IMG/VR virus record: IMGVR_UViG_3300025150_000004
Coordinates: 64,001-128,000 of that record
Reading direction: 5' to 3' (one strand)
DNA length: 64,000 nucleotides
Origin: a virus
Part shown: positions 6,845-37,263 of the stretch, one piece after another
Numbering within the stretch: the stretch's first letter is position 1
Layout: each line of letters opens with the position of its first letter
The notes under the pieces: generated by a model
Told to the model about the DNA's origin: nothing
Database searches by the model: none
Seen by the model: only the letters and a program-made list of their open reading frames with translations
Position numbers and translations under genes: made by a program

Positions 6845-9800
6845 GTGGCGATTCCTGACCCCATCCTCGAAGCACAGGCCCGGCGGCTCAAGGCACGGCA
6901 CCAGGTCAGGCAGGAGTGGGCCAATCTCGACCACATCCGCCTGGCCCGCTCGTACCAGGAGTACGTCGAGGAGAAGAAGCGGGACAACGAGCGCCCGCTT
7001 CCCAAGGCCGAGTGGGAGAAGTTCCAGGGGAAAGGGAAGTCCGAGTCCAAGGGACTGAAGTCCCAACCGAAGTCGGACCGGGCCAAGGCTTTTCTCTCGA
7101 AGGCCAACTCGGTCATGAGCAAGGCGTTCGAGGCGGCCTCCCACAAGGTCAAAACGTTCATCGCCGATCCGGTCGAGCGGAAGAAGATGACCCGGGAGAT
7201 GGGCCGGAGCGTGAAGAAGAATGCTCCCCGGGCGGCCAAGGCCATGTGGAACGGGTTCAAGGGCGAGGCCAAGGCCATCGCCGTGGATGCCCCTTCCATC
7301 CTGTTCAAGATGGCCAAGGAGCGCCGCAAGCCCACCAAGAAGGAGCTTCACACGCTCTACGGGGTCGGCGTCTACGCTGCCGGGACAGCCTTGGCTTTTT
7401 CGGGAGCCACCCCTCTGTTGGCGGCAGCCAAGGCGTTTGGGCACAGCATCACCCTGCACGCCACGTTCAAGGCTATCCACACGGTCGCCGACGAGATCTT
7501 CCTCGGGACCGAGGCCGTCGAGTCCGTGGCACTCGCTGGGGGCCTCGGTGACAAGCTCCCTGTGATGACGAGCGACATCCCGGGTCTGAACCACATTTGG
7601 GATTTCATGGCGGAGACAGCCTCCCAGGTCACCAAGCTCCCCATGTTGGTCGCCGCTGAGGGTAAGGAGCCAGAGGGCGAGGAGGAGAAGTTCCTCTACG
7701 ACCTCATGCAGCGGATCTACGAGGAGGCGGGCAAGGTCTTCGAGAACCTCACCGACGAGGACATCGAGGCCATCATGGCGCACGGGGTTGATGCCCCGTC
7801 CGGCTCGAAGTCGGCGGCCTATTTCAACTCTAAGGAAGATCGGTTTTTGTCCTATTTGAAAAATAGGACATGCGAACCAACTGCTCTCAGCCAGGATGTA
7901 CCGACCCTGTCCATGCCCGAGGTTTTTGTAGGGCACACCGGCCAAAACCGCAGCCTCGAAAACGAGGTTTCAGGGTTGCTCCAGCCGAATCCGTTTGTGC
8001 GGTCGAGGGTTGCACAAACCCCTATCTCGCCAAGGAGTTCTGTAGGCAGCATTACCATGCCTGGTACAGATACGGGGACCCCTCAAAGCGATTTCGCACC
8101 TCCAACGGGCAAGGGAGGATCAACACGTCCGGGTACAGGGTCATTACGGTTGACGGCCAGCAAGTCCTCGAACACCGGCACGTCATGGAACAACAGCTTG
8201 GCCGGGCTCTCCTCCCAGGAGAGACCGTCCACCATCTTAATGGACAGCGGTCCGACAACCGGCCCGAGAACCTCGAACTCTGGTCGAGGCACCAGCCAGC
8301 CGGGCAGCGAGTCGAAGACAAGGTCCGCTGGGCACGAGAGATTCTCGGCCGATATGGCGACCTCTATCCTGAGAATCGCTAAGAAATTCGAGTTGAACGT
8401 TGGGGATCCAGTTCTTTACGGGAAGTACAAGAACAAGAAGGGTGTGATCACCGGGTTCAAGACGGATGAGAAGTCTGGTGACCCCATCGTAGTCATCGAG
8501 CCCGTCCCAAAGGGCCGAAAGCAGACCAAAGAACTGAAGTTGTTCAAAGTCCGTTTTGACGAAGAGCGGGCCGACCCTGCCAAGAGGGCCGCCGAGATGT
8601 CCAACCGGGCCTCCGTGGCTCTGATGCGAATGCTCTCCGACATCGCTCGTCGCCTGGGGGCGGCCCAGCACGTCTACGTCGTGGGTGGGGCCGTGCGGAA
8701 CTTCGCCATCGGCGAGCCCATCAAAGACATCGACGTGGTGATCGACTCCGTGTCCCTCGGCAAGGACTCGGAGTGGTTCGCCAACCAGGTGGCCCGAGCC
8801 ATTCCCGCCAAGACCCAGGTGGTCACCGACCAGTACGGGGTCAGCAAGGTCTTCGTACTTTCACCCTGGGAGCTTGCAGGGCACCAGATGCAGGACCCGG
8901 CCCAGGCGGCCGTGGAGATCGCCAACGCCCGCAAGGAGAGCTACGGCGGGGCCGCCGGGAAGGGGTACAAGCCGGATACGGTGGAGCCTGCCACCATCGA
9001 GGAGGACGTTCGTCGCCGGGAGTTCACGTTCAACTGCATGGCTGGGGATACCCTCATCCCCACCGAGAAAGGCATCCTTCGCATCGACCAGATCGCCTCT
9101 CGGGACGGGGGGGATTATCAGGACATCCGCCTGACGGTAGCAGGGCAAGATGGCCCTTCGACTGCGGTGGGGTGGCAGTACAGCGGGTTCGCCCCCACCC
9201 TGCGGGTGACGACCGAGTGGGGTCATTCCTTCTCCTGCACGCACCATCATCCGGTTCTGGTTCTTCGGGGGCACAGCCATGAGTGGGTGCAGGCGGATCA
9301 GCTTGAGGAAGGTGACCTGCTCTGTGTGCCCGTGCGGCAGGTGACGAGGCGAACTCCTCTTGCCCTCGACCTGCCTGACCCGGTGCAGCCAAAGCACGGG
9401 CGGTTCAAGGAAGTCTGCAAGCCCGAGGTGATGACGCCTGAGTTGGCGTTCCTGATTGGGTGTGTGTTGGCCGAGGGGTCTAATACCCACAAGCGGGTGT
9501 CATTCAGCAACTCCGACCCGGCCCTCATCTCCCGATACGTCGAGTGTTTCCACGCTACGTTCGGAGTCCAGCCCTCACGCAACAAAGTGGTCGAGAAGGG
9601 GTCCGTCCGTGTTTTGCGGGGGGTGGAGTTCGTAGCCAATGCCGACGGCTACGACATCTACGCCGACAGCAAGGCAGTGGTTGGGTGGCTGGAAGACCTC
9701 GGCCTGTACTGCGGGGGGTCCAAGAACGGCAAGTCCGCTTCCCACCACAAGGTCGTCCCGTGGTCCATCCTGCAAGCCGATGAGCGCAGCCAAGGGGCGT

Positions 9801-12800
9801 TCCTCGCAGCATATCTGGAGGGGGACGGCACCATCCGGCCCGACTCGGGGCGCATTACCTTCTGCTCGGCTTCTCCCCATGTCCGACAGCAGTTGCAGGT
9901 GCTTCTGGGTGCCCACGGCATCTTGAGCAAGGTGAAGGACAGGTTCGTCTACATCAACGCCGTGGACTCTGCCATCCTGTGGGAGAAGATCCAGCCGTGG
10001 ATGGTGACCAAGGGGTTCGACTACACTCAGCGGGACAACAAGGCCCGCACCCGCTACGGCATCCCCGCAGATTACATCCGGGGTTTCCTCGCTGGGCGCA
10101 AGCAGGACACCGGCAGCCGGGCCGTTTACGCCACGGACGGAGATGGATTCCGAACCCTCCCCGATGTCCATGAGCCGGTTCGGAAGGTTCAGCGGCTTCT
10201 CCACGATGCCCATGCCCGAGGAGACTTCGACGGGTTCATGGCGAGCCTCAAGGTCATCAGCCCGGACGAGTTCACCAAGCTCCGGCGGTTGTTCGACCTC
10301 GGCTACCAGTACGTCGAGGTCACGTCGGTTGAAAATGCGGGGCAGCAGGACGTGTTCGACATCTCGATGGGCGAGGGGGTCGAGCCTGCTTTTGTGGCGA
10401 ACGGGGTGGTGGTCCACAACACCCTCATGTGGCGGCTGCTTGACCTCGCCAAGGGGCCGGACAAGGCCGAGATCATCGACCTCACCGGCTGCGGGGTCCA
10501 AGACCTGAAGGACCGACGGATGCAGTGCCCGTCGGACCCGGACAAGACTTTCTCGGACGACCCGAGCCGGATGCTCCGGGCGGTCAAGTTCATCATGAAG
10601 TACGGCATGAAGCTGACCCCGGACACCGAGGCAGCTATCCGCCGGAACCTGCCCAAGCTCAAGCGGGCTCCGTTCGAGGCCATCGCCGTCATCCTCGAAG
10701 ACACCCTGCTCAAGGATCCGGGCACGGCGAAGAAGTCCCTGCCCGTGATGAAGAAGCTCGGCTTGCTGGACACTGTGGCCGAGATGATCCGTGAGAACAA
10801 GGCGTTCCAGGCCCGGATGGAGCGGTGGGTCACCAGCAAGCCCATGCTGTTCCTGTTCGACCTGATGGACCTTGGCCTTCCCCTGGGGGCCAACGTCGGG
10901 TTCCTCAGCCGGGACCAGCAAAAGAGGCTCCGTCAGATCGCCCTTGGGATGCCGGAGGGGGAGCCGGAGCGGCTCCTCGAAGTGCTCCGGCAGCCCGGGA
11001 AGGTCATGGACACCCGGGCACTCATTCAGGAGTTCGGGCTCCAGGGGCGAGAGATCGCCCAGATGCAGAAGGACGTGGGGGTGCGGCTCCTGCTCGACAA
11101 CCCCACCCTGGCCAAGAACCCCAGGGCGTTCACCGACGCAGTGCGTCACGAGTTTGCCCGGCGGAAGACGGCTGGTTCCCCGCTGGTCCAGTTGAACATC
11201 GACTTGGGGGAGGGGCAGAAGGTCGAGAAGGTCATCCCGAGTGCCTCACTGCCTTACCTCATCGACAACGTGCAGGTGAGGCGGGTGGCCGGGGCGTGGA
11301 TCCGGCGTCGGGCTACCCGCATCCGAGGTCGTACCCGCTACCTGGCCATGCTCGATGACGCCTGGGAGCCGGTCCGGGTCAAGCTGGCCAATCCCCTCCT
11401 GCCTCAGCAGTTCGTCCAGACGCTCAAGGCCCTGATCGAGAAGGTGAAGTACAACGAGGCTCGGGGTCTGGGGGACACCGCCGAACTCTGGTTGGAGTGG
11501 CGGGAACTCTTCCAGAAGGGTCGTCAGTGGGGCGATTACGTCATCGACCACACAGCCATCCCGTCCGGCAAGGCCAAGGCCGGGGAGATGGGGGTTCGGG
11601 TCTTCCGAACCACCTACGGGCGGGGCAAGGGGCCTCGCCCCAGCATCGCCGCCTGGCTCAAGAAGAACGAGCGGTACTTCCGGGTGCTGGAGGAGGCGAC
11701 CCGCTGGCCCGAGCGGTCGGAGGGTGACGGCATCTTCAAGCACGGGCCGTTCACGGTACACAACACCGTGGGGGCCTCTGACAAGGAGATCCAGACCGCC
11801 AAGGGAATCATCGACCGAGCACTTCGGGCACTTCCAAAGACCGATGTCCCCGAGATGCGCCAGATGGCCTACGGGGACCTGTACCTGGTCGGCGAGATCA
11901 AGCGGAAGCGGTGGGCCGCCTGGTACATGCCCCAGAAGGACGCCATTTACCTTCGGCCGAAGATCAGCGGCATTTCGGCGGACGATTCCGCCCTGCACCT
12001 GGTTCACGAACTCACCCACCGGCTGTGGGCCAAGAGGCTCCCCGCTTTGGTGAAGACAGCGTGGAGCGCCCACCACTTCCAGATGTCCAACAGCCGCAGT
12101 GCCCTTGGAAGGCTCCCCGAAGCCGGGGAAGTCCTGCCCAAGGAGTTGGTGGTCAACCGGAAGCAGGTCAAGGTCGATAGCTACGACGAACTGGGCCAGG
12201 CCGTGCTCGTGGACGCCAAGGGGGGCGCACCCATCGGCAAGGTGAACCGGGTGAAGCTCCGAGAATGGATGGGCAACATCGAGTTCGTCGGCAAGTTCCC
12301 CTCCATCTACGCCTCCTCAGACGCCGAGGAGCACTTCTGCGAGGCCATGGCCCACAAGGGGATGGGGTCCCTCTCGGCAGACAACCTGGCGGCGTTCAAC
12401 CAGATCGTGCTGGGCAAGGGGGGGCCGACCCAGAGCGTGAAGGTGGGGCTCTCCGCCCCTCCGGGGTGGAAGACCGAGAAGAAGCCGAACGGCTGGGTCA
12501 TCTACACGAACCCTACGGGAACGGTGCGGGTGCAGGACACCCGACGGCCTCATCCCGAGCGCTACCAGTTGCTCGAATGGGCGCAGCCCACCATCGTGCA
12601 GGACGGCAAGAAGGTGCCCCGTGGGCGTCCCCAGTGGTTGGAGCACCACGGGTACTCCAGGCTGCCCGAGGCACTGGCGGCCGGAGTGAAGCTCACGCAG
12701 CGGGGTCGGACGGCCTCGCATCACCACATCCGCAACGCCTGCCCAGCCTGCGGGAACGTCTCCACCTGTCGGTGCCGGGCACCCAAGACGGTCGAGACGC

Positions 12801-15494
12801 ACGACCTCTGCTATGACTGTCGGGAGTCAGCGGTCAGGGTCGCCGCTCGCTACAAGAACAAGAAGGAAGTACCCAAGGCCGACGGCAAGGGGACAACCAC
12901 CGTCTACGAGTACAGCGACAAGCAGGTCCAGCACCGAAACCGGGAGAAAGCCAAGCGAGTCGAGAAGCTCCGAGGCTCCATCCACAAGCTCCGAGCACAG
13001 GTCAAGAAGGATCTGGGGGCCGAGGACGAGAAGACCCGAACCGTCGCACTGGTCGTTGGTCTGATGGATCACACCTACGAGCGGGTCGGTAACGACGAGT
13101 CGGCCAAGGACGGCCACTACGGGGTCACCGGCTGGCAGGTCAAGCACATCACGTTCGGCAAGGGCAAGGCCACCATTTCCTACGTCGGCAAGTCCGGCGT
13201 GAAACACGAGAAGGTCGTGGACGACGCCTCGCTCGTCTCCGCCCTCAAGAAGGCTACCAAAGGGAAGGGGTCGAACGACCGGATCTGTGACGGGGAGGAC
13301 TGCAAGGTCTCCGCTTCGGACGTGAACGCCTACCTCAAGCCGTTCGACATCACGGCCAAGGACATCCGTGGGTTCCATGCCAACACCGAGGTTCAGACCC
13401 GGCTCAAGGCCATCCGCTCCAAGGGTGGCAAGCTCCCCGAGGACAAGAAGGAGCGGGAGAAGAAGCTCAAGGCCGAGTTCAAGCAGGCTCTCGAAGAAGC
13501 TGCCAAGGCCGTCGGCCACGAGCCCTCGACACTCAAGTCCCAGTACCTCGTGCCGGGTCTGGAGGACGAGTTCCTCAAGGGTGGTCAGGTGAGCGACAAG
13601 CTCGACAAGCGGGCCATGTCCCTGGAAGAGGTTCGGGCTCTCAAGCAGGAGATCCTCGCCGAGTTGGGGTGGCGGACTGCCACGAAGACCAAGGGGGAGA
13701 AGGAAGAGGAGGAGGTCGAGCGGATGTCCCGTCCTGCTCCCAAGAAGAAGCCGCCCCGGCAGGATCTTCGGCGGAACCGGATGAAGGACGACGACAAGGA
13801 CACCGATGGCCAGGGGGCCGACAAGGACAAGGATCTGTCCCTCAACTACAAGCGGGTAGCCCGCCTCTACCACGCTGCCGTTCTTCAAGACCTCGGGGAC
13901 CTCGATCTGATGCGTCTCGCTGGAGACAAGCAGCACAAACCTGGCGACGTGTGGAAGACCGAAAAGGGCTGGCGAGGGAAGAAGAAGACCCCGAACCAGG
14001 GAGGGCATTTCGAGGGGAAAACTTTCCCCGACAGGGAGCAGGCTGAGGCTTGGGTCGCCGACCCAGACCCGGAAGGCGAAGACGACCAGGCTCCCGACGA
14101 GGAAGGCAGCCGGGCTCCTGACGAGGAGGGCGACCAGGCTCCTGACGGAGATTCTTCGGATCGGCCCGACCCAAAGGCGGAGGCCCGCAAAGAGCGGGAG
14201 CGGCATCGGAATGAGGTTCGTCGCCGGGGCCAGAACTTCGACAAGTCCCTGGACGCTCTGGTGGACACCATCTCCCCGGAGATGGCTGAGGTTCTGATCG
14301 ACCACCTCCCCAGCGGGGACGCCGACAAAGCCGCCATGGCGGAAGCCTTCGACATCCACCTTCACGTTCTCACCGAGGTGTACCTCGACGACGATAAGGG
14401 CTTCTCGAAGAAGGGGCTCGAAGATGCCGCTGAGGTGGTGTCCCTGTTTGGTAGCCCGCCCGACCCCGAGAAGGGGGAGGAGGACGACGCCAAGTTGGAG
14501 GCCAAGCGGGACGCCGCCCGCAAGGAGAAGCTCAAGGAGTTCGGCGAGAAGACCGCCAAGGAGAAGGGGGAGATCCTCGCCCGCCTGCACTTCGCCACGA
14601 AGGTGGTGGCCGATCCTACGGTCGTGGGTGGGCGGTCCTTGGCAGGGAGGACAGACCCCGAGGCCCTACGTGAGCGGGGGTCCGAGGCCGCCCGTCAGTA
14701 CAGCCGGTCGTCACCAGAGATCCGGGCCATGGCCGCCAAGAACGCCATGACCGCCTTGGAGGGGATGGCAGAGGACGACCCGAACCGGGTGGAGTTGGAC
14801 GCCATCGTGGACGGTCTGGCCATCGCCGCAGGCTCCAAGGGGGAGACCTTGGAGGTGGACGGCAAAAAGCTCCGGCCCCGTGCCTCCAAGGGCCACCAGG
14901 TCTTGTACGACCACCTCATCAAGGCTGGGAAGCAGGACATCCTGACCGGCACCATGCACGACCTCTACGGTCCCGAGGGGCGTGCAGCCGTGTCCGAAGC
15001 CCTGGACACGATGGATGACAAGGAGTTGGCCGCCTACGGCAAGACGGGGCACTTCTCGGAGCTTGCGTCCAAGCTCACCGACTCCAAGGTCGGTGAGGAG
15101 CAGAAGGCGTTCATCCGTGGGTTCCTCAAGCGCCAAGGGATCGAGGACAACGGCCCAGTCGTTCATCGAGGCGGCCGAATCCGAGTCGGGAATCGCAGGC
15201 GAGAAGCTCGAAGCTCAGTGGCAGGACCACATCTCCAAGCACCCCGAGGCCAAGGCGTGGGATGACCGCATTCTCTCGGCTGCCCAGAAGGGCGGGGCCG
15301 ATCAGGAGGCCCTGGAGAAGGAGTACCTGGTCTGGCGGTCCCAGATGTACCTCGAATGGCTCCGTCTGATGGGCATCGACCTCCCCAAGGGAAACCCGGA
15401 GCGTGCCCGGCACGAGCACATCACCGACACCAAGGACCCCACACTGCTCGGGGAGAAGCTCGTTCCCCAGGGGGAGGACAAAAAGACAGGCTGA
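6845..15494 (+). CDS. Giant polyvalent protein: N-terminal helical domain, SH3/KOW-like domain, class II CCA-type nucleotidyltransferase (intein-containing), zincin metallopeptidase, Zn finger, DNA topoisomerase IB, acidic C-terminal domain
   Basis: NTase motifs GGAVRN, DID, EDVRRREFTFN, DDPSRMLRAVKF; HELTH plus EEHFCE; TopoIB R-K-R-H-Y set (ERVG, GKSG, DIRG, VGH, SQYL). The ORF is open 6845-15265 and the natural C-terminus continues in another frame to 15494. An internal ATG at 8354 is a possible separate start. Confidence 0.8.
7848..7870 (+). promoter_or_regulatory. RBS-sequestering hairpin upstream of the HNH gene
   Basis: Perfect 10-bp stem TGTCCTATTT-GAA-AAATAGGACA that includes AGGA and the A of the ATG. 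Confidence 0.7.
7870..8382 (+). mobile_element. HNH homing endonuclease nested out of frame inside the giant ORF
   Basis: Two Cx4C..CxxH Zn motifs, GYRVI, EHRHVME..LGR.L...ETVHHLNG.RSDNRPENLELW. Confidence 0.92.
9035..10420 (+). mobile_element. Intein with LAGLIDADG endonuclease (462 aa) in the nucleotidyltransferase
   Basis: Starts CMAGDTLI and ends VVHN before +1 Thr; LIGCVLAEG and FLAAYLEGDG motifs; splits the RREFTFN|TL motif. Confidence 0.95.
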
Positions 15495-15675: not shown

Positions 15676-16314
15676 ATGGCATTGACCAAGAAGGGCGCAC
15701 TGCTCATCACCCGTGACCTGGACCGTGTGGCAACGGTCATCACCCGTGAGGCCAAGGAACTCGGGATTCCCGACAAGGTCGCCACCGGCTTCGCCGAGTG
15801 GTGCGACCGTCTGGCCGACCGCATCGAGGCGACGGCCGGAATCGACCCGAAGGACACGGCCGCCAAGGAGGCGCTCCTCAAGCAGGCGCTCTCCGGCGAA
15901 CCGGCGGCGAAGACCGACTACCCGTTCGACAAGGGCAAGACCTACGACGGCGAGGAGATCGGCAAGGAGCAGTCGGGTCCCCAAGAGGGTGACGCCGACG
16001 AGAGCTACATGCGGGGCGAGTTCACCCAGCAGGAGAACCGGGAGCTTCGGGAGAAGCAGGAGGGTGGCCAGATCTCCGGCGTGAACACCGACCCCCGTGG
16101 CCCCCGTCCCGGCGTCCAGGCGGCCCTCGACAACCTGTCTCAGGTCGTCAAGAGCGCCACCTACACCGACGACGTGGCCGCCAAGGTCGCCGAGGCCCTG
16201 AACCTCGCCGCCGACATCGCCAAGAGCGGTGCCAAGGCCGAGGACGAAGAGGAAGACGAGGGGGAGGCCAAGGAGGCTTCCTCTTTCAACCACGGCTACA
16301 ACCTGAACGCCTAA
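15676..16314 (+). CDS. Hypothetical head-associated protein
   Basis: GGAGG RBS, high-GC3 codons, acidic tail ending KEASS..., located in the head operon. Confidence 0.75.
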   Translation: MALTKKGALLITRDLDRVATVITREAKELGIPDKVATGFAEWCDRLADRIEATAGIDPKDTAAKEALLKQALSGEPAAKTDYPFDKGKTYDGEEIGKEQSGPQEGDADESYMRGEFTQQENRELREKQEGGQISGVNTDPRGPRPGVQAALDNLSQVVKSATYTDDVAAKVAEALNLAADIAKSGAKAEDEEEDEGEAKEASSFNHGYNLNA

Positions 16315-16339: not shown

Positions 16340-16936
16340 GTGAGCGAGAGGGCGGCATACGTCGATTACCAGCAGCGGGCTTCCGAGTTCGCCGTTGGCG
16401 ACGCAGTCTATCCGTTCATGTCGGGGAACCATGACCTGATGGGACGGGTCCAGGCTGTCTGGCCCGCCATCGGCATGGTGCAGGTCGAGTGGCCCCACGG
16501 GTCCGAGCGGGTTCCGGTGGAAGACCTCCAGCGGTATGAGCGAAAGGACCAACTGCCCCCTGCGGTGGGTCTCGACAACGTGCCCGGTGGGGCCTCCTCG
16601 GTCTCGGTTCCGGGCGGGCCGGTGGCTCCCAAGACGGCGACTCTCGCCATCGAGGGCTCCATCCGTCGGGTCGCCGAGGCGTTCGTCAAGAAGGCTCTCT
16701 ACTGGGGGGCCTCCGACCGGAAGTATCGTGCGACCAAGGGTGAACTGGATTCTGGGTCCTTCAACTGCCCCAAGTGTCGGGAGCACGCCCTCCGCAAGGC
16801 CATCTACAAGAGGCAGGAGGGGCGCAGTGAGCCTCTCCTGGGCTGCCCAAGCTGCATGTTCCTGATCAAGCGGTGCGACATCATCGGCTCGGACGAGTGG
16901 CGAGACCTGAACGAGCCCGTGCTGGAGGTGGCCTGA
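16340..16936 (+). CDS. Hypothetical protein with SH3-like N-terminus and C-terminal Zn ribbon
   Basis: CPKC...CPSC; RRVAEAFVKKA motif between the two domains. Confidence 0.75.
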   Translation: MSERAAYVDYQQRASEFAVGDAVYPFMSGNHDLMGRVQAVWPAIGMVQVEWPHGSERVPVEDLQRYERKDQLPPAVGLDNVPGGASSVSVPGGPVAPKTATLAIEGSIRRVAEAFVKKALYWGASDRKYRATKGELDSGSFNCPKCREHALRKAIYKRQEGRSEPLLGCPSCMFLIKRCDIIGSDEWRDLNEPVLEVA

Positions 16937-16937
16937 G

Positions 16938-19900
16938 ATGGCGTTCATGAAGTACGCCAGGGCCGTGGTCGAGCACCCTCACGTCTCCCGACGTGAGTGG
17001 GGCCAGATCCGCACGGCAGGACGTTCCTTCGGGAAGGTCCCGAGTTTCGCCCGGACCCGGGTGAAGCTGGCGAGGGGGTCTGTCCCGACCAACCTGGTGG
17101 ACCAGGCGAGCACCATCTTCGGGGATGTGTTCGACCCGGGTCAGTACCTCCTGACCCATGCCACCATCGTGGCTTCGGTGGATGTGTTCCAGCCCCAGGG
17201 GATCAAGCTCGGTTCCCAGTTGGAGGGCGGGTTCGTCGTCAACCGCAAGTACGGGGACTTCCGGGTCGAGCCGAGGTGCGCCCAGTTCATCAACAACAAC
17301 CGGGACGCCTGGACTCGTGGTGTCCTCCTCAAGGCGTTCGAGACGTTCATCGGCGGGCACAACTTCGTCGAGCACGTCCAGATCGAGTCGATGTCCAAGG
17401 GGCGGATCATCGACGCAGTGGCCCGGGACATCGGGGACTCGGTCTACATCGACATCCTCATCGCCACGGACCGGAAGCACCGGGACCTGGTGACGGCCAT
17501 CGAGAACGGCAAGATGGGCACTTTGTCGATGGGGTGTTTCCTGCCCGGCACGCAGGTCACGATGGCGGACGGTCGCCGCATCGCCATTGAGGATGTGCAG
17601 CCCGGTGACATGGTGCTGACCCACAAGGGCCGTGCCCGTGAGGTGCTGAACAAGCAGATCAAGGGTGGCAAGTGGGATATGCGGACGGTACATGCTGTTG
17701 GGCTGGCATCCCCCATCACGTCCACAGGCAATCATCCCTACTACGTCCTTCGGCCCGCCGAAGTGTGCGCTTGCGGGTGTGGCGAGAGCCTGCCCGCTTA
17801 TGTTTCTTCTGCGAAGAAACCGACGACACGAAGCCTCACACGGCGGTTCAAGGTCGGACACGACAAACGTGTCCTGAACCCCAACAACACCTACTCGCTG
17901 GATGAGTTCAAGCGTCGTAAGGCGCAGATGGACGAGATCCAGAACCCCGAGTTGGTGAAGGTTCGGGCCGATGAACTTCGGGTAGGGGATTTCATCGCCT
18001 TCCCACGGGTGAAGGATGGTGAGCACACCCTTTCCGTCTCTGACGGCAAGGCCCGTCTGCTTGGCTACTTCTTGGCCGAAGGGTGCTTTGCTAAGGAGAA
18101 GGGGCGTCCCGTTCAGGTGACGTTCTGCTTCTCGATGGATGAGAAATCTACGTTCGTTGCCGAGGTGGAGGGCCTGCTCAAGCAAGAGTTCCCAGACAGG
18201 CGGAATGAGCCGTGGGTGCAGGAGCGGGTTGACAGCAACAACTGCATGGTTCACATCCGTGACCCAGAGGTTGCGGCGTGGTTCAAAGAGCACGGCGGCG
18301 AGTACAGCCCTGGTAAGCGCCTGTCGGCTGACGCCATGAACTGGTCGGTGGAGAGCCACAAGCACCTGATCGGGGCGTGGCTAAACGGCGACGGCCACCG
18401 GGCCAAGGCTCATGGTGGGTTCCTTGTGGGCACCACTGTCTCACTGGACCTCGCCAGCCAGATGCACGCCCTGATGGCGAAGTGCGGTTGGTTTGCCCGG
18501 TTCGAGGCCCGCATCGGGTCGAAGTCGGTCACGGTGGCCGAGGCAATCAACGGTGGTGTTGCTGTTCGGGATGAGGCGACGGGGCGGCTTCCGGCGTACC
18601 TGCTGACCATCGGGAACACGCAGTCGGTCGAGTTGCAGGGCTACTGCGCCAAGGCTCCCACCACGGCGAAGTACAGCAACCAGAACAACCGCACTTTTGA
18701 GGATTGGGTGGTCAGCCCGATCACGGCCATCGAGGAGAGTACCTACGAAGGTTGGGTCCACGACATGGAAGTGGAGGAGGACCACACCTATGTTGCTGTA
18801 GGCGCCTGTGTGTCCAACTGCACCGTCGATGGGACCATCTGCACGAAATGCGGGCACTGGGCGGCCGACGAGACCGAGATGTGCTTCCCGACAGGCACCC
18901 GAATCCTGATGGCGGACGGCAAGTACGTTCCCATCGAGGAGGTGGTCGAAGGGGATCTGGTCGTCACCCATACGGGGGCGATCCAGCCTGTCCTGCACAC
19001 GATGGGGCGACACCACGACGGCAACGTCACCGTGCTGAACGTCGAGGGCGTGCCTCAGCCGATTCGGGCAACGACCGGGCACCGTTTCTGGGTCATGCGT
19101 CCCGAAACGCACTGCCAGTGCGGGTGTGGGCAGTCGTTTCGGCGCACCGTCGAACACGAACGGGGGGCGTCACAGGCGTTCCAACGTCGGTTCCTGCCCG
19201 GACACAACAGCAAGGTGATTCCTTTCCCGTCCGGGTTGTTCGCCCCGGCTGACAGCAGGAACACGGGGGCCAATCTGGAGTTCGTCCCGGCGAAGGACAT
19301 TCGCAAGGGCGACTACCTGACGTTCCCCATTCCTCAGCAGGTCACGGCCTCTCCCGAGGCTACTGAGGACAAGGCTCGTCTCATCGGGTTCTTCTTGGCC
19401 GAGGGGAGCTTCATCAAGCGGGATGGGGTACTTGTCGGCGTGAGCTTCGACTTCGGGGCGCATGAGTACGGCTCCCTTGCTGTCGAGGTCGAGGATCTGC
19501 TCAACAAGGTCTGGGGTCGGGACGAGCGCCGCACGGTGGACTTTGACTGGCGGCAGAAGGTGGCGTCGGAGGGTGCCAAGCCAATCCGTCGTCGCAAGAA
19601 CAGTCGTCCTGTCCCCACCGATCTCACCTGTCCGTCGTGTAAGGCACCTTCGGAGTACGCCTACAATGTCCGGTTTAAGAAGGGCCAGGACGACTGCTAC
19701 CAGTGCAAGGTGTGCAACCGTCAGTGGGTCGAGGGGTCGGACCGGGCCGTGAGGGCTTGCCGCAATCTGACGGGGGAGTCCGCCTGTTCGGTTCGGCTGA
19801 TGTGTTCCGAGGCTGCTGAGTGGTTCCACACCTTCTGCGGGGAGTACGCCCACGGCAAGGCGCTGGCTCCCGAGGTCATGTACTGGCCGCAGGAGATCCA

Positions 19901-23914: not shown

Positions 23915-24787
23915 ATGAGCGTTTCCAACGCAGTGAAGCAGCGGGTCATCGGCGAACTGATCCAGTCCCCCCAGGGACGGGCGAAGCTCGCCGCCTCGAT
24001 GACCCAGCCCCTCCGCCTCCGCCGGGACTACGCCTCGGTCGGCCGCAAGACCTTCCTGGTCGAGCAGCTTCCCGATGGCGCACTTCCCATCTACGACAAG
24101 GACCCCGACGTGACGGCGTTCGTGGTCGGCGAAGAGGGCGAGAACATCCTGGCCGTCACCAAGCCGAGGCGGGTGATCTTCCCGCTGTTCGAGATCGCCA
24201 GCAACCCGGAGATCCCGCTGACCCAGATCAAGGAGCGGCGCTTCGACCTGATCGAGCGTGCCCAGGATCTCGGCCGGGCTCAGGTGCAGGCGGCCGAGGA
24301 CGAGCGGGTGTTCGCCACCCTCGACGCCATGGCGACGGCGGGCTTCGACTCCCTCCCGGGCCAGACCAACGCCGACATCCCGGTGATCGCTCCGATCTCG
24401 GGTGCGGTGCTGGCCGACGCCTTCTCCCTCGTGGAGCGGCACGACCTGCGGGTGGCTCGGGTGTACATGAACGCCCGGGACTTCGCCGACATCCGCAAGT
24501 TCGGGCGGAACATCCTCGACATCGAGACCCAGGCCACCCTGCTCAAGACGGGCCTCATGGGCGTGCTGTACGGCGCTCAGATCGTCGTGAGCCGCCTGGT
24601 GCCGGTGGGCACGGTCTACGTCTGCTGCGAACCCGAGCACTTCGGCCGCATCCCGGTCCGTACCGAACTGACGGTGCTCTCCGCCGACGACCCGAAGGCC
24701 CGCACCATCGGCTTCTCGATCTTCGAGAACCTGGGCATCGGGGCCTTCAACCCCCGGGGCCTCGCCCGTCTCACGGTCAACCGCTAA
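23915..24787 (+). CDS. Major capsid protein (HK97 fold)
   Basis: AAGGAG RBS, strongly biased codons, QAAEDERVF spine helix, GVLYGAQIVVS and AFNPRGL C-terminal motifs, followed by a terminator. Confidence 0.88.
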   Translation: MSVSNAVKQRVIGELIQSPQGRAKLAASMTQPLRLRRDYASVGRKTFLVEQLPDGALPIYDKDPDVTAFVVGEEGENILAVTKPRRVIFPLFEIASNPEIPLTQIKERRFDLIERAQDLGRAQVQAAEDERVFATLDAMATAGFDSLPGQTNADIPVIAPISGAVLADAFSLVERHDLRVARVYMNARDFADIRKFGRNILDIETQATLLKTGLMGVLYGAQIVVSRLVPVGTVYVCCEPEHFGRIPVRTELTVLSADDPKARTIGFSIFENLGIGAFNPRGLARLTVNR

Positions 24788-29493: not shown

Positions 29494-29694
29494 GCTCGGC
29501 CTCCTTCGGCTGTTGGCCAGCACATGAAGGAACGGTCAGACAGCAGGCCGAGCAGAGCTTGGGAGGCCGGGGCCTCTTGCTAATAGAGAGTCGGGATAGG
29601 CTCGCAACCGAAAGGAGTGCTGTTGTGAGGGGGTAGAGCGGCCCTTGGCGTGGGGTAGATGGGGAGGACAGCACGACCCCGAACGGAGGGAAAC

Positions 29695-30903: not shown

Positions 30904-30932
30904 TTGACGGCGGATCCGGGTTCAAGTACAAC
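30904..30932 (+). promoter_or_regulatory. Sigma70-type promoter
   Basis: TTGACG-N17-TACAAC with an upstream A-tract. Confidence 0.7.
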
Positions 30933-30938
30933 GTCTCT

Positions 30939-31371: not shown

Positions 31372-31446
31372 AGGACCCCGGAAAAGGTCTACTGTCCTCG
31401 GTATCGTGACGCCAGCCCTTTCGGCTCCACGAGAATGAGGCGAAGA

Positions 31447-31686
31447 ATGCCGACCATCCGGCGACTGGACGTTCCCATCATCCTGGGTTGTCAACCCCCG
31501 GCAGGTCAATTCGCCAATGCGTTTCGAATCCTGAACGCCGACTCGGGCTGCGTGCTGGAGTTCCTGGTGTACTCCCCTCGTGAGAACAAGGCATTCCTCG
31601 TTCATCGCATCCGGCTCTCCCAAGAACTCCTTCCCGTCATCAAAGACCAGGTGAGGTGCGCTTTGGACCCCCAACACGCTTGTTGA
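31447..31686 (+). CDS. DUF3467-like protein
   Basis: FANAFRI..VLEFL..LVHRIRL; similar to 42282-42548. Confidence 0.55.
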   Translation: MPTIRRLDVPIILGCQPPAGQFANAFRILNADSGCVLEFLVYSPRENKAFLVHRIRLSQELLPVIKDQVRCALDPQHAC

Positions 31687-31723
31687 TCGGGGCATGGGTA
31701 GAGTGTGGAGCTACGGAGGTTTG

Positions 31724-33034: not shown

Positions 33035-33103
33035 TCCCTGCCGGTATTCCGCCTATGGTCAGGCCACGGTAGAGGTTTCGCACCTCCGCCGTGGAGGACC
33101 CGA

Positions 33104-33511
33104 GTGGCGACAGGATCCAACAAAAAAGCCAGTAGCGAGGCCGCTTGGGCGCTCATCATGGGGGGCGTGGCCTCAGCCCGTCTGGAAGCCCATCGGCTGA
33201 AGCACCTGGTCAGCCGATGTGAGAAGCTCGTCGAGCACTCCACGCACCGGGAGCACCTGTACCAGGTCGCCGGGGACATCATCGTGGACATGCCGGGCCG
33301 CCTTCGCAAGCTGGAGGTGGCCCTCGACCGGACGGCTCTGGCTCTGTCAGGGATGGGGGAGGAGTTCCTCTCCGCCAGGCTCCCGCTGTCCGAAAAGCAG
33401 CTTGTCGAAGAAGCCACCCAGCCGGGCTTTGGTGGCCACCGTCACCGGCATTCGGTCAAGACAGTCGCCCGGGAGTGGCTCCTCCGGCAGCTTCGAGAGG
33501 CTGGTAGATGA
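33104..33511 (+). CDS. Hypothetical helical protein ending in a TVAREWL motif
   Basis: GGAGG RBS downstream of a CGGT-N7-CTAT motif. Confidence 0.75.
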   Translation: MATGSNKKASSEAAWALIMGGVASARLEAHRLKHLVSRCEKLVEHSTHREHLYQVAGDIIVDMPGRLRKLEVALDRTALALSGMGEEFLSARLPLSEKQLVEEATQPGFGGHRHRHSVKTVAREWLLRQLREAGR

Positions 33512-36429
33512 CCCGGCAGGCCGACAAGTTCCCGGCCTTGGGGCTTCCATCGGAAGCGGGACCCTGTTTCGTAGTCCGGCGGATCGAGGACAACGTCCGC
33601 TCCCCCTCAGTTCGGGACACCTTGGAGAGGAAGGTCGAGCGAGGCCAAGACCTGACGAATCCCGAGGCCCATGCGGTGTACGACCGGGAGGTCGAACGGG
33701 GTCCCGGCGGTCTCATCTCGAAGTTCGAGATCTCGTCTCACGCCCAGTACCGGATGGACCTGCGGGGCATCACGGTCCCCGAGGTCCGCTTCGTGTTCCA
33801 GCGGTTCCAGAAGGAACTCAATGACTGGAAGTCCCGACAGGATCCCGCCTACGACAGGGTGGCTCGGGCAATCCAGCGAGGGGAGCCCATCGAGTACGAG
33901 GACAAGCGGCTCCAGATGTTCATTGCCTTCACCATCCTCCAGAAGGGCTTGGCGAAGGTAATCACGGTCTACTGGAAGGGAATGCCAGACCCCAAGGCTC
34001 CAGGGGTCTGTGTGGTCCCGCACAGCCACCAGAAGCACGCACGGGACCCGGTGCAGGACTGGGGCACCCAGACATACACCAAGGACCCGACGGACAACCC
34101 GGACAACCGGGAGAAGCAGCAGGTGCTACCGACCCCGCCGTGGAGTCGGAGCAAGCCGACGGGGAGGCCCCAGTACAACGTCCCAGGACCCAGTGGCACT
34201 GGGCCAGGCGAGAAGAACATCCACCAGTACCGTATGCGGACCAAGGGGGAGCCGGGGAAGGAGCACCCCCAACCACCGGCTCGAACCTCCCCTGTTCGGC
34301 GGCCGGAGGTGACCGGCGAGGACTGGGAGACGGCTGGTTGGTATGACCGGCTCGACCCACAGGTGGAGGAGCCTTTCCTCGAAGCCTCAATGAAGGGCAA
34401 GCCGTATCCTGGGGCGAACCGGCAGAGGGAGCAGCGAGGCCCCGCTCGAAGGTATTACCGGCTTCGGTACAAGCGTCAGCGTCAGCAGTACAAGCGGCGG
34501 ATGAAGCTGTGGTATCGGCGCTATCGCAAGAACCCCAGGTATTTGAGGGACCAGGAGCGCCGGGACGATCACCCGAAGAGGTTCGAGCGCAAGCCCGGCG
34601 GCGGCTACGTGCGGAACCAGGACCGAAGCAAGGCTTGGCGGGACAAGCAGAAGAAGGCCAGCTTGGCAGAGCCCATCCCTGTGTTCTTCCTCCCGTTGCA
34701 GGAGTGGGGGTGGTTCGAGGGTGTCGGCGACGAAGACCTGATGGAGATCCGTGTTGATGGGAGCCTGTTCCAGCTTCCCATTGACCTGTTCTTCGACCAG
34801 GTGGAGGGCGACCCGGACATGGCGGATGCCCTCTTGGCCTACCTCGACGAGCACTACGAGTTCTCCGAGGGTGAAGGTGAGGACATGGCCATCGACGACG
34901 CAATCGAGGCTCTCAAGAAGATCGCTTTCCAGGTGAAGCTCCGCTACCGGCCCGAGAAGCGCCAGCGGAAGACCCGTGGATTGAAGAAGTGGAAGCAGAA
35001 GATGCAGTACATGCGGAACCGGGCGAAGTCCAAGCGACAGACCCGGGTCCGGTACAAGCGTCTCAAGAGGCTCCCGGCCTTCAAGAAGCAGCAGCAGATC
35101 CGCCGCAAGCACCCAGAGAGGTTCAAGCGGCGGATGGCCGAGGTGCTCACCGCCCCGGACATCGCTTTCGTGGTGGGTGAGGAACTGGACCTGGGGTACG
35201 TCCACAGCGTCAGCCCCATGACCGGGCTCGTGACGTTCCATCGGACCTCGAACGGGGAGTACCTCTCCGACTCTCTGGAGTCCCTGGCAGTCGAGGATTT
35301 CATGGCGGCCGTCGGCTTCCTCTCGGAGGCCGACGAGGAGGCCATGTTCAAGCTCATCGACGTGGAACTGGGAGAGACGGCCTGGTCCGGTGAGTTGACC
35401 GAGGACGGTCTTCGTGGGTCAGCGGCCCTCATGGGCATCGACTGCGATTCCCCGAAGTTCCAAGACCTCTGCGAGAAGCTGGTCGGCAAGACCCAGATCG
35501 CCGACATGGACCCAACCGAAGTCGCCCTGGTGAACTCGGTGGTCATCCATCAGACGGTCTATGACGACGATGCGATGGAGGTTGGAGAGTTCCCCGACCG
35601 GGACCGGGCAAAGGAGCCGACCGAGGCCGACTCTTTCATGATCGACCCCCAGGACGACGACTACATCTTCGGCAGGGTCAACCTCCCCGAGGACTACGCT
35701 CACCTGGTTCAGCGGACGGCTCGGCGGTGGGTCGCCCGGCAGGCGGAGATGCTCTATTGCAAGGAGCCCACCGACCAGGATTCGGACGACACCTACGACC
35801 GTGGGGATGACAGGCTGGAGAAGAAGGTCCATCCGCCTCACTCCGAGCGCCTCGACCAGCCCTCCGTGGAGGAGAACCCGGGTTCGGCCAAGGTCATCCC
35901 GTGGAACCATCCCGACATGGTGAACAACCGGGCGGGGATGGTGCGCCTGGCGGCCCGCATCCACGAGATCGTGGAGAAGTGCGGGGAGGATGTCTTGACC
36001 CGCTCAAGGGGGCTTCGTGTGAAGCTCCGCCGGGTGGATGCACGGAACGCTGTGTGGCTGTTCGACGTGCCCGGGAAGTCCGGCACCCATCGGGTGCGGA
36101 TCAAGGCTGTTCGTCACGGCAACATTCGGGACGTGGGCAAGGCCCACGTCAAGGTGTCCTGCTCCTGCCCGTTCTGGCAGTGGCAGGGGCCGGAGCATCA
36201 CGCCAAGACGGGGGATTACCTGTTCGGGAGCCCGAGGGGCACGGCTGCCAAGCCGGATGTGAAGGACCCCGGCGGGAAGCACGGGGCCTGCAAACATGTT
36301 TTGGCTTGCTTTGATTGGGTTATAGGCCACAACTGGCGGGTTCCCCCAAGACCACGGAAGCGGGCGTCAACAGATCGAGTAGTTGCACAGTTCCTTCGGC
36401 GGCAGCTTCAGGAGGCGTGGTGTGGCTAG
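33508..36429 (+). CDS. Multi-domain protein: DUF4258/RelE-like RNase-fold domain, two very basic tracts, acidic domains, SWIM Zn finger
   Basis: ISSHAQYRMDLRGIT...KVITVYW; SCSCP...CKH. Confidence 0.75.
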   Translation: MTRQADKFPALGLPSEAGPCFVVRRIEDNVRSPSVRDTLERKVERGQDLTNPEAHAVYDREVERGPGGLISKFEISSHAQYRMDLRGITVPEVRFVFQRFQKELNDWKSRQDPAYDRVARAIQRGEPIEYEDKRLQMFIAFTILQKGLAKVITVYWKGMPDPKAPGVCVVPHSHQKHARDPVQDWGTQTYTKDPTDNPDNREKQQVLPTPPWSRSKPTGRPQYNVPGPSGTGPGEKNIHQYRMRTKGEPGKEHPQPPARTSPVRRPEVTGEDWETAGWYDRLDPQVEEPFLEASMKGKPYPGANRQREQRGPARRYYRLRYKRQRQQYKRRMKLWYRRYRKNPRYLRDQERRDDHPKRFERKPGGGYVRNQDRSKAWRDKQKKASLAEPIPVFFLPLQEWGWFEGVGDEDLMEIRVDGSLFQLPIDLFFDQVEGDPDMADALLAYLDEHYEFSEGEGEDMAIDDAIEALKKIAFQVKLRYRPEKRQRKTRGLKKWKQKMQYMRNRAKSKRQTRVRYKRLKRLPAFKKQQQIRRKHPERFKRRMAEVLTAPDIAFVVGEELDLGYVHSVSPMTGLVTFHRTSNGEYLSDSLESLAVEDFMAAVGFLSEADEEAMFKLIDVELGETAWSGELTEDGLRGSAALMGIDCDSPKFQDLCEKLVGKTQIADMDPTEVALVNSVVIHQTVYDDDAMEVGEFPDRDRAKEPTEADSFMIDPQDDDYIFGRVNLPEDYAHLVQRTARRWVARQAEMLYCKEPTDQDSDDTYDRGDDRLEKKVHPPHSERLDQPSVEENPGSAKVIPWNHPDMVNNRAGMVRLAARIHEIVEKCGEDVLTRSRGLRVKLRRVDARNAVWLFDVPGKSGTHRVRIKAVRHGNIRDVGKAHVKVSCSCPFWQWQGPEHHAKTGDYLFGSPRGTAAKPDVKDPGGKHGACKHVLACFDWVIGHNWRVPPRPRKRASTDRVVAQFLRRQLQEAWCG

Positions 36430-37102
36430 GTCTGTTTGTATTTTGACCTGCCCTTGTTGCGGTCAAGGGTTCCTTCGGCGGCAGAGCATCGTAGTGGCCA
36501 TGCAGAAGCGAAATCCCGACGTGGTATTGTCCTGCGGCAAGGCGTGTAGTGACATGCTGAAGCGGCGTCCTATCAACATCATGGACCGCAAAGCATTTGA
36601 GTACACCGTTGGCGTGGTACTTGGGGATGGATCGGTAGATCGGGCCGTGAGGGTGGCCGTTGGTCTTCAGGACGAAAATTTTGTGCCTATTTTGCGTCAG
36701 TTCTTCCAACGGGGAGTTGGGGTAGACCCTGGTGTGCTGCGGAATGAAGAAGCAAGATCTTTGTCTGTGAACCTGAGCTTCAAGGCGGCTGGCGACCTTT
36801 ATCGGTCGTTCAAGCATGGCCCTTCATGGATACTGGAAGATGTGCGCCACCCGGCGATGGTGTTGGCCGGGTTGTGCGATACGGACGGGGGGTGGGAGAA
36901 AAAGAAAGGGCGGCGGGTCGCTTTTTGCATCACGCAGAAGAACAACGGGAATCTGGAGAAGTCCCTACCCCTATGGTATCAAGTCGGGCTGAACCCGTCG
37001 ATTAGGTATTACGCTCCTGACCGGGCGGTACTTCGGATACCCTCTCCTCAACGTGAGCGGTTCCTTGATGTCGTCTCGCTCCAGCACCCCAGGAAAATCT
37101 GA
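36422..37102 (+). mobile_element. Free-standing LAGLIDADG endonuclease with N-terminal Zn finger
   Basis: VGVVLGDG and LAGLCDTDG; CPCC..C...C; lower GC; GTG after GGAGG. Confidence 0.85.
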
Positions 37103-37263
37103 TGGCCGTGTTCGACCACATCGTCACCAACAAGTGGTCGGTGCCTCGCTCGAAGCAGGGGGCCTCTCGGTATCTCCTCGATAGCCTGTCCTTGGGTGAG
37201 CCGGTGACGGCCGCCCGGGTGATCGCTGCCCGGTATCTTGGGCTGAAGGCAAGAGGAACGTGA
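37102..37263 (+). pseudogene. Displaced original 3' end of the 33508 gene (53 aa)
   Basis: MAVFDHIVTNKWSVPR aligns with LACFDWVIGHNWRVPP; ends RVIAARYL; not in the ORF track. Confidence 0.65.

What the first reader, a model, noticed from the sequence alone, without database searches (positions are those of the whole stretch)
6845..37263. Candidate capsid-cargo polyprotein system marked by R-V-A-x-x-[YWF] tags and [KR]-x-A junctions
Seen: unrelated domains in the head-region proteins are separated by two recurring short motifs. The helix-like tag appears as RLARSY, RIAKKF, RVAGAW, RVAARY and RVARLY (giant protein), RVAEAF (16340), TVAREW (33104), RTARRW and RVVAQF (33508) and RVIAARY (37102). 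[KR]-x-A falls at domain starts: KRA-AEM before the NTase, KTA-GS after it, KLA-NP before the peptidase, RTA-SH before the Zn finger, KRA-MS and RTA-TK after TopoIB, plus KKA, KQA and RTA in the scaffold and KVA and RFA flanking the portal core. Known: T4 and phiKZ prohead proteases cleave internal head proteins after short Glu-ending motifs, and T4 internal proteins carry a capsid-targeting peptide. Inference: this phage uses an Ala-ending code to load polyproteins into the prohead and cut them into separate enzymes that are ejected with the DNA. Caveat: [KR]xA is common by chance in Ala/Arg-rich proteins, so the evidence is the placement at boundaries.
Basis: partly seen in the sequence, partly recalled or inferred. 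Interest (0 to 1): 0.9.

Follow-up and report, generated by a model that had tools for sequence, protein, structure and literature searches.

The report
Peptide address tags on huge-phage proteins
A huge uncultured phage puts one short helical peptide (R-V-A-x-x-aromatic), often next to a [K/R]-x-A-S site, at the ends and module joints of many unrelated enzymes; it is probably a label and cut site for loading them into the head, but nobody has measured this.

Summary
Both motifs are real. RVAxx[YWF] occurs 11 times in this 143-kb genome against about 1.3 expected. It is also enriched in two related genomes (9 vs 1.3; 14 vs 3.5) and in 80 capsid-gene loci (37 vs 5.5). Permuted controls stay at chance, the codons vary, and half the copies lie within 25 residues of a protein end.

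Loose [KR]xA is not over-represented. It does cluster at module junctions defined independently from relatives (8 of 13 against 2.6 expected, P=0.002). The sharper form [KR]xAS is enriched proteome-wide. It is conserved two or three times before an invariant C-terminal tail in 37 of 38 scaffold orthologues.

The two-intein gene 16938-21362 encodes an assemblin-fold (T4 gp21-like) protease. The giant ORF is a polyvalent protein (nucleotidyltransferase, zincin motif, topoisomerase IB) whose modules are shuffled among relatives.

Best reading: a docking helix plus an Ala-Ser release site that load and free head cargo, resembling the T4 capsid-targeting sequence and the herpesvirus scaffold M-site. 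Packaging, cleavage and ejection are all untested, and the tag also sits on proteins encoded far from the head genes.

This scan found the same tag earlier in other genomes of the clade.

The parts
4885..6792 (+). Portal protein. RFAS at 6574-6585 lies exactly where shorter orthologues end; a ~70-aa C-terminal extension follows it.
   Evidence: Weak Pfam Portal_Mu match; 63-73% identical orthologues; orthologues of 564-572 aa end at ...GRF(G).
6845..15265 (+). Polyvalent 'giant' ORF of 2806 aa. Modules: N-terminal module; KOW/SH3-like barrel; PolyA_pol-type nucleotidyltransferase split by an intein (aa 746-1192); HELTH..EEHFCE zincin motif (12005-12343); Zn finger; topoisomerase IB (aa 2029-2232); C-terminal module.
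   Evidence: Pfam; motif positions; module order differs among relatives.
6938..6955 (+). Tag copy RLARSY (giant aa 32-37).
8372..8389 (+). Tag copy RIAKKF (aa 510-515), at the start of the KOW-like module. Relatives have RTAKKF, RIAKTF or RTAKIF here.
11282..11299 (+). Tag copy RVAGAWIRRR (aa 1480-), between the nucleotidyltransferase and the zincin region.
12836..12853 (+). Tag copy RVAARY (aa 1998-2003), between the Zn finger and topoisomerase IB. BLAST HSPs with relatives start or end here.
13853..13870 (+). Tag copy RVARLY (aa 2337-2342). It ends a conserved ~70-aa charged linker (RxATK..EKEEEEVER..KPPR..DLSLNYK).
15676..16314 (+). 212-aa acidic head-module protein with KEAS (16270-16281) 10 residues before its C-terminus.
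16340..16936 (+). SH3-like barrel + variable linker + RVAEAFVKK helix (16667-16684) + Zn ribbon. The family has 411 members.
   Evidence: R110 and A112 at least 90% conserved; AF2 model.
16938..21362 (+). Prohead protease (assemblin / T4 gp21 fold) interrupted by two inteins (17535-18818 and 18882-20363). Conserved H (17373-17375) and S (17526-17528).
   Evidence: Hint domains; junctions; intein-less orthologue alignment A2; fold matches.
21359..23023 (+). Acidic low-complexity scaffold-like protein with an EF-hand pair. KQAS (22898-22909) and RTAS (22943-22954) precede the conserved tail LSQLWESAPDVSKVFGV (22970-23020).
23915..24787 (+). Major capsid protein.
   Evidence: phrog_2522 at 1e-51; 85-94% identical in more than 574 contigs.
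33104..33511 (+). 135-aa protein with KKAS at aa 7-10 and a C-terminal tag TVAREWLLRQLREAGR* (33461-33478). Its orthologue ends RVAVRYLLAQLKGS*.
33508..36429 (+). 973-aa protein with an internal RTARRW (35713-35730) and a C-terminal KRAS-TD-RVVAQFLRRQ... (36358-36393).
37102..37263 (+). 53-aa ORF ending RVIAARYLGLKARGT* (tag with one inserted residue, 37216-37236).
   Evidence: Whether this ORF is a real gene was not tested.

Best explanation
The window holds the head-assembly module of a huge phage distantly related to Bacillus phage G. Its gene order is T4-like: portal, polyvalent giant protein, two small core proteins, assemblin-fold protease (with two inteins), acidic scaffold, capsid protein.

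The clade uses two linked peptide signals.
1. A 10-14-residue basic amphipathic helix, R-[VL]-A-x-x-[YWF]-[LMV]-x-[RK]. It sits at the extreme N- or C-terminus of stand-alone proteins and between modules of the giant protein. I infer that it docks these proteins to a still unidentified component of the prohead interior.
2. [KR]-x-A followed by S or G. I infer that the prohead protease cuts here to free the scaffold from its conserved C-terminal tail, to trim head proteins, and to detach cargo from the helix or separate modules.

Shown: the motifs, their excess over chance, their placement, their conservation and the protease fold. Inferred: docking, cleavage, packaging and ejection.
For: - Tag excess: home 11 against 1.3 expected; G004 9 against 1.3; G001 14 against 3.5; 80 capsid-gene loci 37 against 5.5.
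- Permuted controls are flat in this genome and G001, and tag codons vary, so selection acts on the protein.
- Terminal placement: 15 of 29 copies lie within 25 aa of a protein end, against 6.2 expected (P about 1e-4). In the 43%-GC relative the tags sit at residues 6-19 or within the last 15 residues.
- The tag is conserved in orthologue families.
- Module shuffling puts HSP ends at tag positions.
- AF2 models the tag as a helix after a disordered linker.
- Protease: T4 gp21 is the top fold match (Z 7.3), followed by herpes assemblins. H and S are invariant.
- [KR]xAS excess: 43 against 26 expected, 86 against 37, and 79 against 62 in the three genomes; most control tetrapeptides are near chance, though [KR]xAE in this genome reaches z 2.8.
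- Scaffold: 37 of 38 orthologues have a site within 18 aa of the invariant LW..APDVS..FG tail, and 37 of 38 have another further upstream. Site density is 1 per 111 aa.
- [KR]xA within 9 aa upstream of tags: 27% against 7% background, P=4e-5.
- Junction co-localisation: P=0.002.
- In G004, at least 13 genes start MRR[ST]AS-helix, often followed by N-R-[TS]-A-S.
- Domain types match published polyvalent or Dar-type packaged proteins (PMC5512222).
- Precedents: T4 CTS (PMC9026906); herpes M-site VQA-S, which frees the scaffold from the capsid protein (PMC4498786).
Against: - There are no virion proteomics and no mapped protein termini for any member of the clade.
- No receptor for the tag was identified.
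- HAD, C39-like and SNF2 proteins carrying the tag are encoded 40-60 kb from the head genes, so capsid targeting is an extrapolation for them.
- Loose [KR]xA is not enriched in count, and two of the six cited giant sites are not conserved; a third, KLA-1513, has no aligned relative.
- The predicted orientation (site downstream of N-terminal tags, upstream of C-terminal tags) goes the right way, but the counts are tiny: 3 downstream and 1 upstream for N-terminal tags, 4 upstream and 0 downstream for C-terminal tags.
- Known gp21-type proteases cut after Glu, not Ala.
- The protease fold match is moderate (Z 7.3; Foldseek E 0.012).
- Part of the [KR]xA signal near tags may only reflect the R/K/A-rich composition of the helix.
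Confidence: 0.5

Rival explanations
1. The helix is a docking motif for a hub unrelated to the capsid, for example a replication or repair factory, the phage chaperonin, or a membrane site. Under this reading the [KR]xAS sites of the scaffold are a separate, ordinary maturation feature.
For: The tag is present on HAD, C39-like peptidase and SNF2 proteins in the early or replication part of the genome. No receptor was found. The phage encodes its own Cpn60.
Against: The tag density is highest in the gene next to the portal and in conserved head-module proteins. [KR]xA sites are physically linked to the tags. The tagged domain types are those of known packaged polyvalent or Dar proteins.
Confidence: 0.2
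2. R-[VILT]-A is itself the protease cleavage site (P3-P1), and the following aromatic and basic residues are P' determinants. There would then be no separate docking function.
For: R-[VILTA]-A, with or without the aromatic residue, is what co-localises with junctions: 7 of 13 against 1.0 expected, P=0.002. The motif has the same x-A form as the scaffold sites. Ser is the commonest residue after RVA.
Against: Conservation is strongest downstream (aromatic, hydrophobic, basic) and the stretch is modelled as a helix, which is unusual for a protease substrate. Cutting within the last 6-12 residues of a protein, or after residue 6-16, has no obvious purpose unless the removed piece does something.
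Confidence: 0.12
3. The motifs are conserved linker 'joints' that persist because module exchange between polyvalent genes occurs there. They would be recombination scars or permissive linkers with no targeting role.
For: Module order differs between relatives and HSPs break at the tags. In G004 the modules are separate ORFs ending at the tag.
Against: Codons differ between copies, and between 43% and 64% GC genomes, so there is no DNA-level homology to recombine on. The tag also occurs on single-domain proteins at their extreme ends and is more conserved than its flanks.
Confidence: 0.08
4. The pattern arises by chance or from composition in Arg/Ala-rich proteins of a 64% GC genome.
For: Loose [KR]xA is at or below the shuffle expectation.
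Against: The tag shows a 4- to 8-fold excess in three genomes of different GC content, with mostly flat permuted controls and orthologous conservation.
Confidence: 0.03

Closest known systems
Phage T4 capsid targeting sequence (CTS) of IPI-III and Alt, removed by prohead protease gp21
   Same: A short terminal peptide shared by unrelated small or enzymatic proteins. An assemblin-fold protease gene lies between the portal and scaffold genes. The proposed logic is the same: dock to the core, then cut to release (PMC9026906).
   Different: The T4 CTS is N-terminal only, about 10 residues and weakly conserved, and gp21 cuts after Glu. Here the tag is a well-conserved helix found at N-termini, C-termini and internal joints. 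The candidate site ends in Ala-Ser. [LIV]xE and [ASG]xE show no junction signal.
Herpesvirus scaffold maturational (M) site and capsid-protein-binding C-terminal tail, cut by assemblin
   Same: An x-A|S site a few tens of residues before the scaffold C-terminus, followed by a conserved hydrophobic tail. The protease has the same fold (PMC4498786).
   Different: P3 is basic here rather than V/L/I, and the sites are repeated two or three times. Binding of the tail to the capsid protein was not tested. The protease is not fused to the scaffold.
Polyvalent proteins of phages and conjugative elements (Iyer, Burroughs, Anand, de Souza, Aravind 2017)
   Same: One giant late-gene polypeptide strings together unrelated enzymes, including a zincin-type HExxH motif. 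Relatives add 2H phosphoesterase and GNAT modules. The SNF2 ATPase is a typical partner.
   Different: In the passages I searched, that work proposes autoprocessing by the metallopeptidase and describes no shared linear tag or Ala-Ser site. Topoisomerase IB plus a CCA-type nucleotidyltransferase is a combination I did not find mentioned there (term search only).
Encapsulin cargo-loading peptides and microcompartment encapsulation peptides
   Same: Short terminal or inter-domain amphipathic peptides that address unrelated enzymes to the inside of a protein shell. This comparison rests on my own knowledge.
   Different: There is no sequence similarity. Those peptides are not removed by a protease. 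Binding to the HK97-fold shell was not tested here.

Membership tests
T4-type CTS / gp21 internal-protein system | Serine protease of the gp21/assemblin fold encoded in the head module | tested here: met
   AF2 model of the intein-less orthologue: 5jbl_A Z 7.3, rmsd 3.5, 124 aa aligned, 2 Z units above the next hits; herpes proteases at Z 4.8. Foldseek top three hits are 5JBL, E 0.012. H143 and S194 are invariant. The strength of the match is moderate.
T4-type CTS / gp21 internal-protein system | Cleavage after Glu in (L/I)-x-E or (S/A/G)-x-E | tested here: not met
   [LIV]xE and [ASG]xE do not co-localise with module junctions (P=0.83 and 0.31). The conserved scaffold sites are [KR]xAS. This is indirect, because no termini have been measured.
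T4-type CTS / gp21 internal-protein system | Short N-terminal peptide necessary and sufficient for incorporation into the prohead | not testable with these tools
   Only placement is shown: tags at residues 4-19 of several proteins.
Herpesvirus-type scaffold M-site | x-A|S site shortly before the scaffold C-terminus, followed by a conserved tail | tested here: met
   37 of 38 orthologues have [KR]xA[SGA] within 18 aa upstream of the LW..APDVS..FG tail; 31 of 38 have [KR]xAS.
Herpesvirus-type scaffold M-site | The C-terminal tail binds the major capsid protein, and cleavage releases the scaffold | not tested
Polyvalent proteins (Iyer et al. 2017) | Two or more unrelated effector or enzyme domains in one polypeptide encoded among late or packaging genes | tested here: met
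   PolyA_pol head and Topoisom_I in one ORF directly after the portal gene. Relatives add 2H phosphoesterase and GNAT.
Polyvalent proteins (Iyer et al. 2017) | Zincin-like metallopeptidase (MPTase) domain | tested here: inconclusive
   HELTH (aa 1721) and EEHFCE (aa 1828) are present, but there is no Pfam or PHROG hit for the region.
Polyvalent proteins (Iyer et al. 2017) | Protein is packaged in the virion and delivered with the DNA | not testable with these tools
   No virion proteome exists for this clade.

The most novel reading that the evidence does not exclude
A whole clade of huge phages, with hundreds of contigs up to 536 kb, uses a sequence-readable 'address and release' code. A portable helix docks any enzyme to the prohead interior. 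A herpesvirus-like [KR]-x-A|S site, cut by an assemblin-fold protease, then frees the cargo and splits polyvalent proteins into separate injected enzymes, including tRNA and RNA repair enzymes and topoisomerase IB. If so, the packaged proteome of uncultured phages could be predicted from sequence alone.
Probability: 0.4. Interest if true: 0.8.

Novelty: new variant of a known kind. Interest (0 to 1): 0.62.

Why it matters
If the reading holds, the set of proteins that these uncultured huge phages carry in their heads and inject could be read directly from genome sequence. That set would include RNA-repair enzymes, a topoisomerase and an SNF2 ATPase, which are likely first-minute counter-defence tools.

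It would also show a tailed phage using the Ala-Ser scaffold-release logic known from herpesviruses, which strengthens the evolutionary link between the two lineages.

A short, well-defined tag that works at either end of a protein would also be a practical handle for loading foreign proteins into large capsids.

Tried and rejected
- Complex prediction with the scaffold EF-hand pair (A4), 2 Ca and the 102-aa tagged protein (A3) scored 0.00. That is no verdict either way. The idea that the EF-hand pair is the tag receptor therefore remains untested.
- Rfam found no intron or other RNA family in the window or around the HNH gene at a loose threshold. No tRNA genes were found.
- Megablast of the protease gene against phage records gave no match.
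- The first 32 kb of Tunturiibacter phage Tunturi_5 (portal 35% identical) has no tag, so the code may be limited to a subclade.
- Pfam and PHROGs gave nothing for most tagged proteins or for the giant's N-terminal, zincin and C-terminal parts.
- The protein Atlas gave nothing for the giant's C-terminal module.
- A sequence search of PDB with the protease orthologue and with the Zn-ribbon family profile gave nothing useful.
- A k-mer search for a shared promoter upstream of tagged genes found none.
- A DNA-level repeat as the origin of the motif is rejected, because the codons vary.
- The orientation test of cut sites relative to N- and C-terminal tags goes in the predicted direction but is underpowered.
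- My first reading, that [KR]xA is pure chance, was dropped.

Full report
**Context.** The window is bases 64001-128000 of a single 142,891-bp virus contig with 64% GC. GC3-based gene calling gives 111 genes, almost all on the + strand. In the finding's span the order is:
- terminase large subunit 2254-4215
- portal 4885-6792
- a 2806-aa ORF 6845-15265
- a 212-aa acidic protein
- a 198-aa SH3-like/Zn-ribbon protein
- a 1474-aa ORF with two inteins
- a 554-aa very acidic low-complexity protein with an EF-hand pair
- a 215-aa protein
- the major capsid protein 23915-24787

This matches the T4 order 20-(67,68)-21-22-23. By portal similarity the nearest records are an uncultured 485-kb phage (61%), Tunturiibacter phage Tunturi_5 (35%) and Bacillus phage G (25%). 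The capsid protein is 85-94% identical in more than 574 viral contigs, so this is a large clade of huge phages.

**The helix tag is real.** RVAxx[YWF] occurs 11 times in the genome against 1.3 expected from per-protein shuffles. The head region has 5 against 0.29 expected and the rest of the genome 6 against 1.0. I fetched two related genomes in full. G004 (227 kb, 43% GC) has 9 against 1.3 expected. G001 (402 kb) has 14 against 3.5. In 80 loci around the capsid gene the count is 37 against 5.5, with the capsid protein's own site excluded. Nine permuted or shifted control patterns are at chance in this genome and in G001; two of them (RVG, RVAx[YWF]) are raised in G004. Codons for the motif vary within and between genomes, so selection acts on the protein.

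The extended consensus is [AS]-[AV]-[RKQ]-R-V-A-x-[RA]-[YFW]-[LMV]-[KR]-[RK].

**Placement.** Leaving out the multi-copy giants, 15 of 29 copies lie within 25 residues of a protein end, against 6.2 expected (P about 1e-4).
- In G004 the tags sit at residues 6, 10, 15 and 19 of small proteins, or in the last 15 residues.
- In this genome the tag is C-terminal on a HAD_SAK_1 phosphatase, a C39-like peptidase and a 296-aa protein. It is N-terminal on an SNF2 ATPase and a 102-aa protein.
One of them has an orthologue ending RVAVRYLLAQLKGS*.
- In orthologue families the tag is among the best conserved positions. In the Zn-ribbon family (411 members), R110 and A112 are at least 90% conserved after a variable linker. 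In the 102-aa family, A16 and W19 are invariant. The SNF2 orthologue of G001 keeps RVAESW at residue 12.
- AF2 models the tag of the Zn-ribbon protein as a helix following a low-confidence linker.

**The giant ORF is a polyvalent protein with shuffled modules.** Pfam finds a PolyA_pol-type nucleotidyltransferase head split by a LAGLIDADG intein, and topoisomerase IB. HELTH and EEHFCE are present. Relatives place the same modules in a different order and add 2H phosphoesterase and GNAT modules. In G004 the region is split into separate ORFs, two of which end just after the tag. BLAST HSP ends against relatives fall at tag positions 510 and 1998 and within about 10-40 aa of positions 1480 and 2337. 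This class, including the SNF2 partner and the proposed autoprocessing, was described by Iyer et al. 2017 (PMC5512222). I found no mention of a shared linear tag in the passages I searched.

**[KR]xA.** My first tests suggested chance: 130 against 117 expected in the head region and 36 against 42.7 in the giant. Placement tells another story.
- Of 13 junction clusters defined only by HSP ends, 8 have a [KR]xA within 5 aa, against 2.6 expected (P=0.002 by circular shifts). Nine control classes are not significant.
- The signal lies in R-[VILTA]-A (7 of 13 against 1.0 expected); KxA alone is not significant.
- Alignments show that several junction sites are decayed or variant tags. KTA-1441 aligns with RTAKIF. 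KRAAEM aligns with TRVAHRY/LRVSAKY. RTASHH aligns with RVAHQSY.

- A [KR]xA lies within 9 aa upstream of 27% of tags, against 7% background (P=4e-5).
- The sharper [KR]xAS is enriched proteome-wide: 43 against 26, 86 against 37 and 79 against 62 in the three genomes. Most control tetrapeptides are near chance; [KR]xAE in this genome is the exception (z 2.8).
- It is strikingly conserved in the scaffold-like protein. In 38 distinct orthologues of otherwise divergent low-complexity sequence, the last ~60 residues read ...[KR]xAS..PQP[RK]xAS.G.K..G...[RK]xAS, then 3-8 residues, then an almost invariant LSxLWESAPDVSxVFG tail. 37 of 38 have each of the two proximal sites. Site density is 1 per 111 aa, against about 1 per 900 in the proteome.
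- Further sites lie at the point where shorter portal orthologues end (RFAS), 10 residues before the end of the 212-aa protein, after the catalytic domain of the protease family (KAAS), and directly before the C-terminal tag of the 973-aa protein.
- In G004 at least 13 genes begin MRR[ST]AS plus a helix, often followed by N-R-[TS]-A-S.

**The protease.** The 1474-aa ORF carries two Hint-domain inteins. Its extein junctions read continuously in the consensus of intein-less orthologues. The AF2 model of one such orthologue has T4 gp21 as its best structural match (Foldseek E 0.012; Z 7.3, rmsd 3.5 over 124 residues). Herpesvirus assemblins follow at Z 4.8. One His and one Ser are invariant. I regard the fold assignment as moderately supported. 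Herpes assemblins cut at x-A|S, and their M-site removes the scaffold tail that binds the capsid protein (PMC4498786). The scaffold pattern found here is the same arrangement.

**Mechanism proposed.** The helix docks cargo and modules inside the prohead. The protease cuts at [KR]xA|S/G, freeing the scaffold from its tail and the cargo from its helix. The closest functional precedent is the T4 CTS (PMC9026906). None of docking, cutting, packaging or ejection has been measured. The receptor is unknown, and my single complex prediction gave no verdict. The orientation test is underpowered. Tagged proteins encoded far from the head genes keep open a non-capsid docking role.

**Verdict.** It is a new variant of known kinds (T4 CTS/gp21, herpes M-site, polyvalent proteins). 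The same tag was noted earlier by this scan in other genomes of the clade (e1-5401860, e1-5373604, e1-5362272) and in an overlapping window of this genome (e1-5763951).

Noticed in passing
window 7870-8382 (+), inside the giant ORF in another frame: A complete HNH_3 endonuclease ORF lies here. The giant's frame stays open through it as a Ser/Thr/Gly/Pro-rich stretch, and the GC3 signal drops. L012 and L013 have a similar alternate-frame ORF at a different place in their giant gene. Rfam detected no intron.
   Followed up: partly
window 9080-10420; 17535-18818; 18882-20363: Three inteins, at least two with LAGLIDADG domains: one in the nucleotidyltransferase and two in the prohead protease. The ribonucleotide reductase outside the window also carries inteins.
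   Followed up: partly
window 24927-26891 (+): An ORF with low GC3 carrying LAGLIDADG_2, HTH and a weak N6_N4 methyltransferase match sits directly behind the capsid gene. It is probably a mobile insertion.
   Followed up: no
window 28009-29523 (-): By GC3 the real gene here is on the minus strand (GC3 0.90). The + strand ORF 28024-29583 is spurious.
   Followed up: yes
window 23915-24787 and loci L062-L141: The capsid protein is 85-94% identical across more than 574 contigs, including a 43%-GC genome, while portals of the same phages are only 63-73% identical. The capsid protein also contains a conserved internal RVARV[YF]MNARD that matches the tag consensus.
   Followed up: partly
window 22046-22318 (scaffold aa 230-320) and orthologues (A4): A canonical EF-hand pair is conserved inside the otherwise low-complexity acidic scaffold-like protein of most clade members. 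Its role is unknown.
   Followed up: partly
G004 (loci L030-L041), e.g. L036:4799-5200, L041 region after the portal: A second shared N-terminal leader, MRR[ST]ASExIRNLExRIARLE, heads at least 13 genes of the 43%-GC relative. It is absent from this genome and from G001.
   Followed up: partly
L002:915-1384 (genome 20915-21384, upstream of the window): A reading frame starts MASSAQRVANTWLRRK (N-terminal tag). After about 45 codons the coding signal appears to continue in another frame. This could be a frameshift, a sequencing error or two small genes.
   Followed up: no
window 6574-6792: This portal and that of L006 carry a ~70-aa C-terminal extension that begins exactly where the 564-572-aa orthologues end.
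   Followed up: partly
L011:11600-13600: About 2 kb between the portal and the next ORF in the 43%-GC relative has stops in all three + strand frames. It may hold an RNA gene or a mobile element.
   Followed up: no
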